From Bacillota bacterium (GTDB taxonomy: Bacteria > Bacillota > Clostridia > Oscillospirales > Acutalibacteraceae), in NCBI GenBank assembly GCA_023458915.1, contig JAEWWM010000050.1, positions 2,916 to 66,915 of the forward strand: DNA of 64,000 bases, in the 5' to 3' direction. Under the pieces are notes generated by a model that saw only the letters and a list, made by a program, of their open reading frames with translations, did no database searches and had not been told where the DNA came from. Every line of letters starts with the position of its first letter. Position 1 is the stretch's first letter. Shown here one piece after another: positions 34,328 to 35,608 of the stretch. The position numbers were made by a program, and so were the translations under genes.

Positions 34328-35608
34328 TTAAAGTGTCATTGAATATCTTAATACAACGTCAGAGAGTATATTAATCTGCTCATTTAAAAAATTAATTAAA
34401 TTTTTAAAATACTCTCTGCTGCCAACTAGTATATTTGTTTTCTCATATCCAACTAGTATATCTTGTTCCTCACCTCTATAATTAATAATTTTCTTATATT
34501 TTTGATTAGTAATTTTCTTACCGTTTTTAGCAGCTTGGACAACAGCTATATATGCTGCACCATTTTGTTTCCAGGTGGCGGCCCAGCCGTCGGCCCAGGA
34601 GGTGGTGTGACTGGTCCTGGCGGTCGCCCCCTCAGCGGCGAACCAAACGCCTAGATCAGTAGCGTACCAGCCGCGCTCCCAGCATTCGGCAAAGCCGGTC
34701 CAGGATTTGATAGCTTTGGCGGCGTTGAGTGCATTCCAAAAATCAATCCACTTTTGACACAATAAATATAATAGGTGTGCTTCTATCTCTTTACCTTTTT
34801 CATCACCTAATTTCCATTTATATGGCAGTTTCTTTAATAAATCTTCTACCTTATAGCTTGAACTGGTTAACGTAGTGGTTGACGAAGAACTAATACTAGA
34901 AGAACTACCACTAGAGGAATTACTAGTAAAAACTGTTGGTGTTAAGTTCTTTGCTGATGTTAAGTCCTTTAATATTTTAATCTGATTATCTAAAACTTTT
35001 ATTAAATTTTTAAAGTATTCTTTGCTGCCAATAGAGATTATAGTTAAGTCCTTAGTTACAACTACCCTATTCTTTTTAGCAGCCTGAACAACAGTGTTAT
35101 ATGCTGCGCCTCCTTTTCCCCAATTGTCGTTGTATCTTTTCCAGGCGGCGGCCCAGGCGGCGGCCTTGGAATCAAAATCAGAATCAGAATCAGAATCAGA
35201 ACCAGAGCCAGAATCAGAATCAGAGCCAGAATCAGAATCAGAGCCAGAATCAGAATTGAAAGCGCCCCAGGCGGCGATCCAGACGTTGTGACTGATGGCG
35301 CCGCTAACATCAGGGTCTCTAATGGCTTTCCAAAAATCATTCCACTTTTCACACACTAAATCTAATAATTTTGCTTCTATATCTTTATGTTCTTCATCAC
35401 CCAACCTCCAAGTATTTGTTAGTTTATCTAACAGACTTTCTATCGTAGAGCTAGAACTAGAGCTAGAACTAGAGCTTGAACTAGAGCTAGAACTAGAACT
35501 GGAACTGGTTAACATAGCACCTATATTTGAAAACGATAAAGTAGAAACACTCGCTAATGCTGAGAGCGTGATTGATAAAACTTTTTTACTAATTTGCTGA
35601 TTTTTCAT
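34328..35608 (-). CDS. secreted Trp/Ala-rich protein made of two tandem ~175-aa modules with poly-Ser and Ser-Asp tracts (no family recognised)
   Basis: Signal peptide, then S21. Module 1 is TIESLLDKL...WRLGDE...IEAKLL...KWNDFW...AAWAAAWK...GAAYNTVVQAAK...GSKEYFKNLI. A Ser-rich linker follows. Module 2 has the same motif order: VEDLLKKL...WKLGDE...IEAHLL...KWIDFW...WAATWK...GAAYIAVVQAAK...GSREYFKNLI. Confidence 0.75.
   Translation of the reverse strand: MKNQQISKKVLSITLSALASVSTLSFSNIGAMLTSSSSSSSSSSSSSSSSSSSSTIESLLDKLTNTWRLGDEEHKDIEAKLLDLVCEKWNDFWKAIRDPDVSGAISHNVWIAAWGAFNSDSGSDSDSGSDSDSGSGSDSDSDSDFDSKAAAWAAAWKRYNDNWGKGGAAYNTVVQAAKKNRVVVTKDLTIISIGSKEYFKNLIKVLDNQIKILKDLTSAKNLTPTVFTSNSSSGSSSSISSSSTTTLTSSSYKVEDLLKKLPYKWKLGDEKGKEIEAHLLYLLCQKWIDFWNALNAAKAIKSWTGFAECWERGWYATDLGVWFAAEGATARTSHTTSWADGWAATWKQNGAAYIAVVQAAKNGKKITNQKYKKIINYRGEEQDILVGYEKTNILVGSREYFKNLINFLNEQINILSDVVLRYSMTL
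35169..35256 (-). repeat. imperfect hexanucleotide (gaatca/gagcca) microsatellite encoding (SD/SG)n
   Basis: About 14 tandem 6-nt units read directly from the sequence. They encode SDSGSDSDSGSDSDSGSGSDSDSDSDFDS. Confidence 0.9.
35447..35508 (-). repeat. imperfect 12-nt tandem repeat (agagctagaact) encoding a 21-Ser run
   Basis: Read directly. In-frame, inside 34328..35608, just after the signal peptide. Confidence 0.9.

What the first reader, a model, noticed from the sequence alone, without database searches (positions are those of the whole stretch)
34328..35608. Novel secreted Trp/Ala-rich module present in three copies (two in tandem here, one in 39390..40028)
After a signal peptide the protein repeats a ~175-aa module with conserved landmarks: (I/V)E(S/D)LL.KL, W(R/K)LGDE, IEA.LL.L.C.KW.DFW, a Trp/Ala cluster (AAWAAAWK / WADGWAATWK), GAAY..VVQAAK, and GS(K/R)EYFKNLI..L..QI.IL. 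The gene at 39390..40028 carries a diverged third copy in the same order. I recognise no known domain. Ser-rich linkers separate the modules, as in surface or secreted proteins.
Basis: seen in the sequence. Interest (0 to 1): 0.7.

Follow-up and report, generated by a model that had tools for sequence, protein, structure and literature searches.

The report
Orphan secreted two-module prophage cargo protein
This gene encodes a real exported protein made of two copies of a previously undescribed helical, tryptophan-rich module; the family is tiny, fast-evolving, confined to one lineage of uncultured gut Clostridia and sits in the cargo slot next to a phage lysis gene, so it is a genuine new family of unknown function rather than a new kind of system.

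Summary
The ORF 34328..35608 (-) is real. It encodes a 426-aa protein: Sec-type leader, 20-Ser run, module 1, Ser/Thr linker, module 2.

No Pfam, NCBIfam, PHROG, PADLOC, PDB-sequence or Foldseek match exists. An exhaustive HMMER scan of 1.84 billion representative proteins found four relatives. All are single-module and all come from one metagenome sample.

Three of five loci place the gene convergent to a GH25+LysM endolysin. The gene has its own extended -10 promoter, RBS and terminator. The window's lysin and Sak recombinase are each 69% identical to genes 1.6 kb apart on one viral contig. The family evolves about 4-5 times faster at non-synonymous sites than the adjacent lysin (omega 0.4-0.6 against 0.08-0.17).

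The "third copy" (39390..40028) shares the promoter/5'UTR/leader cassette. It has only marginal, collinear similarity to the module and lacks the landmarks. The same cassette also drives an unrelated cargo elsewhere.

Best reading: a moron-type, phage-derived secreted binding protein. Its layout resembles Ltp-type superinfection-exclusion proteins, but it is not a member of that family. Its function is untested.

The parts
35656..35664 (-). Extended -10 promoter-like element TGATATAAT of gene A. It lies within the block TTATGATATAAT, which is invariant in all family loci.
   Evidence: Alignment A3 of 7 upstream regions has invariant columns here. Pattern match. Coordinates. Only a consensus and conservation argument; not tested experimentally.
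35620..35628 (-). Ribosome-binding site AAAGGGAAC, conserved as AAAGGRA in relatives.
34328..35608 (-). Gene A: 426-aa exported two-module protein (stop codon included).
35516..35608 (-). Leader, aa 1-31 (MKNQQISKKVLSITLSALASVSTLSFSNIGA). Sec type I signal peptide by inspection; no lipobox Cys.
   Evidence: The leader is 52-70% identical at the aa level, and about 80% at the nucleotide level, in five other genes. The only hydrophobic segment has KD19 max 1.34. SignalP was not available.
35447..35509 (-). Poly-Ser run (about 20 Ser) encoded by alternating AGY/TCN codons with a 12-nt period.
   Evidence: Short-read contigs L089 and L090 end just 3' of this run, at window 35414.
34943..35446 (-). 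Module 1 (aa 55-222).
   Evidence: (domain score 220 bits).
35171..35257 (-). SD/SG low-complexity insert (aa 118-146) in the variable centre of module 1. It has an 18-nt unit in 4.5 copies; the allele on L088 has one unit fewer.
34862..34942 (-). Ser/Thr-rich inter-module linker (aa 223-249).
34331..34861 (-). Module 2 (aa 250-426). It carries a 19-aa insertion in the predicted beta-hairpin.
   Evidence: (218 bits).
34176..34206 (-). Intrinsic terminator hairpin (14-bp stem plus U tract) between the convergent gene A and the lysin gene.
   Evidence: z = -2.8; 0 of 200 shuffles fold as well.
33349..34152 (+). GH25 + LysM endolysin, convergent partner of gene A. The same pairing occurs in L001 and L005.
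32956..33237 (+). Holin-like 93-aa membrane protein upstream of the lysin (weak evidence).
   Evidence: phrog_1299 holin, E 0.0025. 33% identical to the ORF preceding the lysin in bajarodcaudo virus 3.
35965..36609 (-). Sak-type single-strand annealing protein with a C-terminal zinc ribbon. Upstream of gene A and co-directional with it.
   Evidence: PF06378 E 2.5e-50 and phrog_659 E 2.4e-63. 69% identical to an ORF on viral contig L097 that also carries a lysin 69% identical to the window's.
39390..40028 (-). Gene B (212 aa). It has the same promoter/UTR/leader cassette, a helical Trp/Ala-containing mature part with marginal similarity to the module, and a Ser/Pro-rich tail.
   Evidence: The AF2 single-sequence model is unusable (pLDDT 39).
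40070..40085 (-). Gene B's copy of the extended -10-like element (TGATATATT...).

Best explanation
Gene A is a self-contained, phage-derived accessory ('moron'-type) gene in a decayed prophage/accessory island of an uncultured gut Oscillospirales bacterium.

Shown:
- It has its own conserved extended -10 promoter, RBS and terminator.
- It encodes a protein with a Sec-type leader, a poly-Ser spacer, and two tandem copies of an orphan ~170-aa module.
- The module is predicted to be mostly helical, with one beta-hairpin and a long C-terminal helix.
- The gene sits in the interval between a phage endolysin and a phage Sak recombinase. Family members recur next to GH25-LysM lysins.
- The family is very rare and evolves fast. 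Its N- and C-terminal scaffold is conserved, and its Trp/Ala-rich centre is hypervariable and rich in indels.

Inferred:
- The leader is cleaved and the protein acts outside the cytoplasmic membrane as a non-enzymatic binding protein.
- The variable Trp/Ala-rich centre is the specificity surface, and tandem duplication raises valency.
- The gene is expressed from the lysogen rather than with the late genes.

Most likely role (speculative): a lysogen-benefiting surface or extracellular factor in phage-bacterium conflict. It would work like Ltp-type superinfection-exclusion proteins (anchor or leader, then Ser-rich spacer, then tandem helical repeats that bind an incoming phage component). It is not homologous to them.
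For: - Anatomy.
- Own promoter, RBS and terminator, with the promoter block invariant in 7 loci.
- No known family or fold.
- Real family: 4 relatives in 1.84e9 representatives, E 6e-18 to 3e-4, rising to 2.7e-71 to 1.3e-34 with the profile.
- AF2 model from the 6-sequence alignment has pLDDT 72.7 and pTM 0.68. Confidence is low exactly over the variable centre.
- Conserved convergent pairing with GH25+LysM lysins in the window, L001 and L005. Nucleotide similarity of 81-84% runs through the lysin.
- L003 neighbours hit PHROGs, including an ArpU-like late regulator, phrog_36 at E 1e-16.
- The window's lysin and Sak are each 69% identical to ORFs 1.6 kb apart on IMG/VR contig UViG_3300033072_000688.
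- In bajarodcaudo virus 3 (lysin 56% identical), the slot after the lysin holds opposite-strand cargo genes and the integrase.
- Rates: lysin dN ~0.10, omega 0.08-0.17. Family dN 0.43-0.55, omega 0.42-0.63 at similar dS. Centre region 26-33% aa identity against 42-59% in the flanking regions. Module 1 vs module 2 omega 0.82.
- The invariant residues are hydrophobic or structural (W, G, A, S, Y, F, N, L). No catalytic-looking constellation is present.
- Ltp architecture (lipid anchor, serine-rich spacer, repeat domain that binds the tape measure protein) and the placement of lysogenic-conversion genes after the lysis module: PMC3952083.
Against: - No experiment and no expression data.
- No intact prophage is present. 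There are no structural, terminase or integrase genes in the window.
- Sak and gene A are on the opposite strand to the lysin, whereas lysin and Sak are co-directional on L097. The remnant is therefore rearranged, or derives from two elements.
- No family member was found in IMG/VR or INPHARED phages.
- One family locus (L004) lies next to spoIVA and a GHL10 gene, not phage genes.
- There is no lipobox, LPXTG or wall-binding domain, so retention at the cell surface is unexplained.
- The AF2 model rests on only 6 sequences.
- dS values are near saturation, so omega values are approximate.
- omega < 1 everywhere, so positive selection is not demonstrated. Relaxed constraint fits equally well.
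Confidence: 0.45

Rival explanations
1. Host- or matrix-directed surface or secreted factor. This would be an adhesin-like, possibly O-glycosylated protein in which the poly-Ser and SD stretches act as glycosylated stalks and the Trp-rich helices bind glycans or host molecules. The phage linkage would be only the vehicle.
For: - Leader plus Ser-rich and SD repeats.
- The only hit in NCBIfam is to the SD-repeat region of staphylococcal SdrC (21 bits).
- Gut origin of the lineage.
- Tandem duplication fits avidity.
- Fast evolution is typical of surface proteins.
Against: - No LPXTG, lipobox, SLH, CWB2, LysM or other anchoring signal. The only hydrophobic segment is the leader.
- No glycosyltransferase or accessory Sec genes were seen among the genes annotated in the window.
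- The SdrC hit is far below its cut-off (1700 bits) and covers low-complexity sequence only.
- No known carbohydrate-binding fold was found.
Confidence: 0.2
2. Secreted antibacterial protein, or an accessory of a bacteriocin or bacteriolysin locus. The Trp-rich amphipathic helices would attack competitor membranes, the adjacent GH25-LysM enzyme would act as a partner lysin, and an SdpI-family membrane protein nearby would give immunity.
For: - In L001 the divergent neighbour is a 91-aa peptide with a double-glycine leader (EALDNIAGG) and a weak Bacteriocin_IIc match (E 5e-4; sequence).
- A Nif11-leader-like small ORF lies just upstream of the family gene in L001. Its decayed counterpart is in the window at 35643..35780.
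- An SdpI-family gene lies at 36896..37561.
- The pairing with the lysin is conserved.
Against: - The bacteriocin match is below Pfam's cut-off.
- The Nif11 resemblance comes from memory and was not tested.
- SdpI is separated from gene A by Sak and is not seen in the other loci. No conserved adjacent immunity gene exists.
- The proteins are hydrophilic (GRAVY -0.25 to -0.6) with pI from 4.9 to 9.2, so there is no consistent cationic amphipathic character.
Confidence: 0.1
3. An evolutionarily young orphan that is decaying or has no selected function. It would be kept only because the island is recent.
For: - Extremely narrow distribution.
- High omega, 0.4-0.8.
- One family member carries an in-frame TAG.
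- The surrounding island is full of gene remnants: a truncated AAA ATPase and the decayed small ORF upstream of gene A.
Against: - Both modules keep all landmark motifs after duplication at dS ~0.6.
- Promoter, RBS, leader and terminator are conserved across loci.
- omega < 1 in the scaffold regions.
- The ORF is intact and identical, apart from one repeat unit, in independent assemblies.
Confidence: 0.12
4. Gene B (39390..40028) carries a true, very diverged third copy of the module. The alternative is that it shares only the 5' expression/secretion cassette.
For: - Collinear weak matches: N-terminal helix region plus C-terminal HYLIKLITTLYNQKNALNQL against EYFKNLIKVLDDQTNIL.
- It scores 17.8 bits against 4.8 for the next real ORF, and 0 of 3000 shuffles reach it.
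- tblastn with P0002 aligns 113 aa at 27% identity, E 0.025.
- It shares the promoter, leader and Ser-rich tail.
Against: - hhalign probability is 2%.
- With bias correction, E is 0.021.
- All landmark motifs are absent.
- The same cassette is fused to an unrelated cargo in L004.
- B has no homologue other than itself among 5.8e9 clusters, so no profile could be built.
- The AF2 model is uninformative.
Confidence: 0.35

Closest known systems
Ltp-type superinfection-exclusion lipoproteins of temperate Streptococcus thermophilus phages (TP-J34 Ltp)
   Same: - Prophage-encoded and exported.
- Order of parts: N-terminal export signal, then serine-rich spacer, then tandemly repeated helical domains that form the active binding part.
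- Sequence variation in the repeats changes specificity.
- The soluble, anchor-less form is still active (PMC3952083).
   Different: - No lipobox Cys in gene A.
- Modules are ~170 aa with a beta-hairpin, not short helix-turn-helix-like repeats.
- No sequence or fold match: the Pfam scan was negative and Foldseek against PDB gave best E 0.34.
- Gene A sits beside the lysin rather than in the lysogeny module.
- Function is untested.
Prophage 'morons' / lysogenic-conversion genes located after the lysis module (for example the staphylococcal immune-evasion cluster, or streptococcal toxin genes between lysin and attR; established knowledge, and the module order in PMC3952083)
   Same: - Self-contained unit: promoter, ORF, terminator.
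- Placed at the lysin end and transcribed independently of the late operon.
- Encodes a small secreted protein, is fast-evolving, and has a patchy distribution.
   Different: - The host is a commensal gut anaerobe.
- The prophage is decayed.
- No phenotype is known, and the protein family is new.
Serine-rich / SD-repeat surface proteins of Firmicutes (Sdr/Clf MSCRAMMs, SRRPs)
   Same: Poly-Ser and Ser-Asp low-complexity stretches next to folded domains in an exported protein.
   Different: - The repeats are short (20-29 aa).
- No LPXTG, no KxYKxGKxW/YSIRK-type leader, no accessory Sec or glycosyltransferase genes.
- The folded domain is unrelated.
Polymorphic secreted effector families with a conserved N-terminal trafficking part and swappable C-terminal cargo
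   Same: A nearly identical promoter + 5'UTR + leader block is attached to different mature domains: the A-type module, the 235-aa L004b cargo, and gene B.
   Different: - The conserved part is only a Sec leader and its promoter, not a trafficking domain.
- No toxin domain or adjacent immunity gene was recognised.

Membership tests
Any curated protein family (Pfam-A, NCBIfam, PHROGs, PADLOC) | Score at or above the family threshold, or E <= 1e-3 over the folded module | tested here: not met
   The best hits are all low-complexity or far below cut-off: Secretin_N_2 at 16.5 bits against 23.4, and SdrC at 21 bits against 1700.
Ltp-type Sie lipoproteins | Lipoprotein signal peptide with a lipobox Cys | tested here: not met
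   The leader MKNQQISKKVLSITLSALASVSTLSFSNIGA|ML contains no Cys, and neither do the leaders of the relatives.
Ltp-type Sie lipoproteins | Ser-rich spacer followed by tandem helical repeat domains | tested here: met
   20-Ser run, then two modules predicted mainly helical. This is architecture only.
Ltp-type Sie lipoproteins | Sequence or structural homology to the Ltp repeat domain | tested here: not met
   No Pfam hit. No PDB sequence hit with the family profile. Foldseek against PDB found no match with E <= 0.001.
Ltp-type Sie lipoproteins | Blocks DNA entry of superinfecting phage by binding its tape measure protein | not testable with these tools
   Needs phage infection assays.
Prophage moron | Own promoter and terminator flanking a single ORF | tested here: met
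   Conserved extended -10 element. Strong terminator hairpin. Sequence evidence only.
Prophage moron | Located inside a prophage, between functional modules | tested here: inconclusive
   Flanked by the holin-like gene and lysin on one side and Sak on the other. Both lysin and Sak have 69%-identical counterparts on one viral contig. No structural, terminase or integrase genes remain in the window.
Sec type I signal peptide | n-region with Lys, 15-20 residue h-region, small residues at -3/-1 | tested here: met
   By inspection and hydropathy. No dedicated predictor was available.
MSCRAMM / Sdr or SRRP surface proteins | LPXTG sorting signal; long SD or Ser-rich repeat region; dedicated leader type | tested here: not met
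   No LPXTG or C-terminal hydrophobic segment. The SD insert is 29 aa. The leader is unlike YSIRK or KxYKxGKxW.
The new module family itself (A-type module) | Collinear motifs: (I/V)E(D/S)LL, WKLGDE, LL.L.CQKW.DFW, WK..GAAYN.(I/V)VQAAK, (I/V)GS(R/K)EYFKNL(I/V)..L..Q...L | tested here: met
   Both modules of gene A, P0001-P0003, and the C-terminal half of P0004/L005 carry them. Gene B does not.

The most novel reading that the evidence does not exclude
The family may be a new class of phage-borne, Sec-exported specificity proteins. A conserved helical scaffold would present a hypervariable Trp/Ala-rich surface that binds incoming phage or cell-envelope components, giving a non-lipoprotein functional analogue of Ltp-type superinfection exclusion. 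The family would be disseminated in this lineage through a portable promoter + 5'UTR + signal-peptide cassette that can be recombined onto unrelated cargo, including gene B and the L004 cargo.
Probability: 0.15. Interest if true: 0.6.

Novelty: new variant of a known kind. Interest (0 to 1): 0.35.

Why it matters
If the reading holds, it adds a new protein fold family to the poorly known repertoire of accessory genes carried by phages of uncultured gut Clostridia. It also gives a compact example of two things: a promoter-plus-leader cassette shared by unrelated secreted cargo, and an accessory gene evolving far faster than the lysin beside it.

Practically, the 166-position profile (alignment A2) could seed a new family entry. 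The poly-Ser and SD stretches also explain why short-read assemblies break at this gene and why the protein is missing from large protein catalogues.

On its own it is one more lineage-restricted secreted orphan. It does not open a long-standing question.

Tried and rejected
- **Protein searches.** A word-indexed search of 5.8e9 protein clusters with module 2 found nothing. With the family profile it returned only the same 4 proteins.
- **DNA scans with the two-module alignment.** IMG/VR and GTDB genomes gave nothing. The genome scan used two very narrow peptide patterns, so it is weak negative evidence.
- **DNA scans with the six-sequence alignment.** JGI metagenomes and IMG/VR gave nothing.
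- **Leader DNA pattern.** Scans of JGI metagenomes and IMG/VR gave nothing.
- **Megablast of 31-41 kb** against phages and plasmids gave no match.
- **tblastn of module 2** against INPHARED phages gave no match.
- **PDB and fold searches.** PDB sequence search with both profiles gave only noise. Foldseek against PDB and BFVD gave no hit with E <= 0.001. The top rows were flagellins at TM about 0.2, rejected as helix-hairpin coincidence.
- **AF2 on gene B** as a single sequence gave pLDDT 39 and is unusable, so the third-copy question could not be settled structurally.
- **PADLOC** found no defence family for A, B or the Cys-rich ORF.
- **Sample identity.** A literature search for the sample and assembly accessions found nothing, so the host animal is unknown.
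- **Inversion switch.** I considered a site-specific inversion around gene B because of the 34-nt inverted repeat. All 9 independent contigs have the same orientation and no recombinase is in the window, so this stays an unexplained observation.
- **tRNA-Pro as the integration site.** I considered this but did not test it with att repeats.
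Full report
**1. What is at the coordinates**

ORF 34328..35608 on the minus strand encodes 426 aa. The parts, in order, are:
- a leader, MKNQQISKKVLSITLSALASVSTLSFSNIGA|ML;
- about 20 consecutive Ser;
- module 1 (aa 55-222);
- a 27-aa Ser/Thr linker;
- module 2 (aa 250-426).

The leader is the only hydrophobic segment. Its 19-residue Kyte-Doolittle maximum is 1.34, which fits a cleavable signal peptide better than a membrane anchor. A/V/I/L at -3 and A at -1 are conserved in all relatives. There is no lipobox Cys, no LPXTG and no second hydrophobic stretch.

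The two modules are 42% identical. BLASTP gives E 4.5e-22 with SEG and composition correction and the Ser runs removed.

Module 1 carries a 29-aa SD/SG insert built from an 18-nt unit. Module 2 carries a 19-aa insertion further on. The tandem-module observation is therefore confirmed.

**2. Is it a known domain?**

No. Pfam-A, NCBIfam, PHROGs and PADLOC give nothing beyond low-complexity noise. Profiles of the module find nothing among PDB sequences.

An AlphaFold2 model of module 2, built from the six-sequence family alignment, has pLDDT 72.7 and pTM 0.68. Its elements are:
- a long N-terminal helix (23-50);
- four shorter helices (54-111);
- a beta-hairpin (115-144);
- a long C-terminal helix (148-175).

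Confidence is low over residues ~55-90. Foldseek finds no match with E <= 0.001 in PDB or BFVD. With only six sequences the model is moderate evidence for a mainly helical fold. It is not proof of a new fold.

**3. Homologues**

An exhaustive HMMER scan of 1.84 billion representative proteins found four relatives, P0001-P0004, with E 6e-18 to 3e-4. The family profile re-found only these four among 5.8 billion clusters, with E 2.7e-71 to 1.3e-34.

- All four are single-module proteins.
- P0001-P0003 carry almost the same leader, MKNQKISKKVLSIALSAL.
- All come from two assemblies of one sample, SAMN17215438, on contigs of 1.6-3.5 kb.
- P0004 is the C-terminal part of a gene interrupted by an in-frame TAG.

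DNA-level scans of IMG/VR, JGI metagenome contigs, GTDB species genomes and INPHARED phages found no further member.

Two caveats apply:
- The GTDB scan used two very narrow peptide patterns.
- Gene A itself is not in the 15-billion-protein collection. The same locus occurs at 99.8-100% identity in nine contigs from sister samples and in the NCBI MAG GCA_023421155.1. Three of those contigs stop before or within gene A: L089 and L090 end just 3' of the poly-Ser run, and L087 ends about 80 nt upstream of the ATG.

The family count is therefore a lower bound.

**4. Organism and neighbourhood**

UvrB is at most 89% identical to any GTDB species representative. The nearest are uncultured gut Clostridia/Oscillospirales MAGs from human, goat and other animals.

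Outside ~27.6-42.3 kb the window holds housekeeping genes: relA, recJ, uvrAB, murD, def, prs and others.

Between tRNA-Pro (27484..27560) and RNase P RNA (42396..42799) lies an accessory island. It contains:
- a truncated defence-type AAA ATPase;
- a signal-peptide BspA-LRR ORF;
- a holin-like gene and a GH25+LysM endolysin;
- gene A;
- a Sak single-strand annealing protein;
- an SdpI-family protein;
- ANT(6);
- a Cys-rich ORF;
- gene B;
- a class D beta-lactamase-like lipoprotein;
- azlCD.

No recombinase was found in the window.

**5. Phage linkage**

Gene A is convergent with the endolysin, with a 175-nt gap that contains a strong hairpin terminator. The same convergent pairing with a GH25+LysM gene is seen in L001 (P0002) and L005 (P0004). 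Nucleotide similarity of 81-84% runs through the lysin.

P0001 (L003) lies between ORFs that match PHROGs and an ArpU-like late regulator, phrog_36 at E 1e-16.

The window's lysin and Sak are each 69% identical to ORFs 1.6 kb apart on IMG/VR contig UViG_3300033072_000688. That interval holds small ORFs, one of them a signal-peptide peptide.

In bajarodcaudo virus 3 (lysin 56% identical), the slot after the lysin holds opposite-strand cargo and the integrase.

One family locus, L004, is next to spoIVA and a GHL10 gene instead.

The window has no structural, terminase or integrase genes, and lysin and Sak are on opposite strands here. What remains is a rearranged prophage remnant.

**6. Expression cassette**

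The upstream regions of all five family genes share three elements (alignment A3; alignment A4):
- an invariant TTATGATAtA.T block, which is an extended -10 (TGnTATAAT);
- a ~40-nt AT-rich 5'UTR;
- an AAAGGRA ribosome-binding site.

The same elements sit upstream of a second L004 gene and of window gene B.

The second L004 gene (235 aa) has a near-identical leader (leader-HMM E 1.9e-20). Its mature part is unrelated to the module and to B.

The promoter-UTR-leader block thus behaves as a portable 5' cassette attached to different cargo. Within the window only gene A has the canonical version.

**7. Evolutionary rate**

Nei-Gojobori estimates:

| Comparison | aa identity | dN | omega |
|---|---|---|---|
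| Adjacent lysins (dS 0.65-1.3) | 81-83% | ~0.10 | 0.08-0.17 |
| Family genes at comparable dS | 41-53% | 0.43-0.55 | 0.41-0.63 |
| Module 1 vs module 2 (dS 0.63) | 42% | 0.51 | 0.82 |

Within the module, the centre (aa 101-165 of gene A) is 26-33% identical, against 42-59% in the N- and C-terminal parts. It carries most of the indels, including the SD insert, and coincides with the low-pLDDT region.

dS is near saturation, so these are rough figures. They show fast protein evolution on a conserved scaffold. They do not show positive selection.

**8. The claimed third copy (gene B, 39390..40028)**

Against:
- hhalign probability is 2%.
- Bias-corrected hmmsearch gives E 0.021.
- None of the landmark motifs is present.
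- B has no homologue but itself.
- Its single-sequence AF2 model is unusable.

For:
- The leader matches (E 6e-5).
- The promoter element is shared.
- Two collinear weak matches total 17.8 bits against 4.8 for the next best real ORF, and 0 of 3000 shuffles reach that score.
- P0002 aligns over 113 aa at 27% identity.

Because the cassette is also fused to an unrelated cargo, I rate true module homology at about one in three.

**9. Mechanism**

Shown:
- a self-contained transcription unit;
- an export signal;
- Ser-rich spacers;
- two copies of a mainly helical orphan module with a conserved scaffold and a variable Trp/Ala-rich centre;
- no conserved polar constellation that suggests catalysis;
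- recurrent placement at the lysin end of phage-derived DNA.

Inferred:
- The protein is secreted.
- It acts by binding, and duplication adds valency.
- It is expressed from the lysogen, and it benefits the lysogen.

The closest architectural analogue is Ltp of phage TP-J34: lipid anchor, serine-rich spacer, and a repeat domain that binds the tape measure protein of the incoming phage. Ltp is still active without its anchor (PMC3952083). Gene A fails Ltp membership on the lipobox, on sequence, on fold and on genomic position. The claim is therefore 'may work like', not 'is'.

Rival readings are an adhesin or glycoprotein, a bacteriocin-locus accessory, and a functionless young orphan. Each is weighed in its own entry, and none is excluded.

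**10. Verdict**

This is a real, new, very narrowly distributed secreted protein family carried as phage-type cargo. The tandem duplication and the novelty of the module are confirmed. The third copy is at best a remote relative that shares the 5' cassette. The kind of thing, a fast-evolving secreted moron in a prophage remnant, is familiar, so interest is moderate to low. The portable promoter-leader cassette and the lysin pairing are the most reusable observations.

Noticed in passing
window 39196-39229 and 40145-40178: A 34-nt inverted repeat, 91% complementary, brackets gene B with 915 nt between the arms. Each arm contains the start codon and first ~10 codons of the outward-facing gene: the Cys-rich ORF (MCNSRCNGNN...) and the class D beta-lactamase-like lipoprotein (MCNSKCNGNN...). 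An inversion would swap which of the two lies downstream of B's promoter. All 9 independent contigs show one orientation, and no recombinase is in the window.
   Followed up: partly
window 38788-39228 (-): A 146-aa Cys-rich ORF with reiterated C.QGL / C..AL motifs has no match in Pfam, NCBIfam or PADLOC and only a non-significant PHROG match (E 0.19). It is co-directional with gene B and 161 nt downstream of it.
   Followed up: partly
L004 1986-2693 (+): A second gene directly after P0003 has a near-identical promoter, 5'UTR and leader (MKNQQVSKKVLSIALSAIMSISATSLLSANA). Its 200-aa mature part is unrelated and itself has no family match. This shows the 5' cassette is shared by different cargo.
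   Followed up: partly
window 35643-35780 (-); L001 494-583 (+) and 65-340 (-): Just upstream of the family gene, L001 has a 29-aa ORF (MNEKVLKLAEKIFKNENLLNELDKAETFD). From memory it resembles a Nif11-type leader; this was not tested. The window keeps the homologous sequence, but the ATG has become ACG. L001 also has a divergent 91-aa peptide with a double-glycine leader and a weak Bacteriocin_IIc match, E 5e-4.
   Followed up: partly
L005/L006 393-395: An in-frame TAG splits a fifth family gene into a leader + N-terminal ORF and the 123-aa 'P0004'. This is a pseudogene or a readthrough case. It is identical in two assemblies of the same sample.
   Followed up: partly
window 35171-35257 and 35447-35509; L087-L090: Three short-read contigs of the same strain stop before or within gene A: L089 and L090 end just 3' of the poly-Ser run, and L087 ends ~80 nt upstream of the ATG. 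The one contig that spans the gene (L088) lacks one 18-nt SD unit (420 against 426 aa). Neither allele is in the 15-billion-protein collection. This is either repeat-length polymorphism or assembly collapse.
   Followed up: partly
window 39901-39942: A 21-nt tandem duplication (90% identical) inside gene B's leader duplicates the putative cleavage region: NVSATLI / NVSATLE.
   Followed up: no
window 37686-38555 (-), 40146-40961 (+), 36896-37561 (+): The island carries an ANT(6)-type streptomycin adenylyltransferase (PF04439, E 1e-88), a lipoprotein with a penicillin-binding transpeptidase/beta-lactamase-type domain (PF00905, E 9e-28; class D by my reading, not tested), and an SdpI-family membrane protein.
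   Followed up: no
window 28568-28927 (+): A 119-aa fragment with a Walker A motif matches the N-termini of defence ATPases (PtuA, GajA, AriA; E down to 2e-6). It looks like a truncated defence gene.
   Followed up: no
window 29019-29971 (+): A signal-peptide ORF with a weak BspA-type LRR match (263 aa) is followed, in another frame, by a short ORF with a 15-Ser run ending ...SSSTI. It may be a frameshifted secreted protein with a Ser-rich tail. The match to the family HMM is due to the Ser run only.
   Followed up: no
L097 5470-5682 (+) (IMG/VR UViG_3300033072_000688): In the related viral contig, the lysin-to-Sak interval holds a small ORF with a signal-peptide-like start (MKNFKKIICGLLACLTIAGAVGVSTPDVQA) followed by an Arg/Ser-rich tail. 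This is another exported product in the same slot.
   Followed up: no
window 27484-27560 and 42396-42799: tRNA-Pro(GGG) and RNase P RNA (class A, 265 bits) bracket the accessory island. tRNA-Pro is a candidate integration site, but att repeats were not searched.
   Followed up: no
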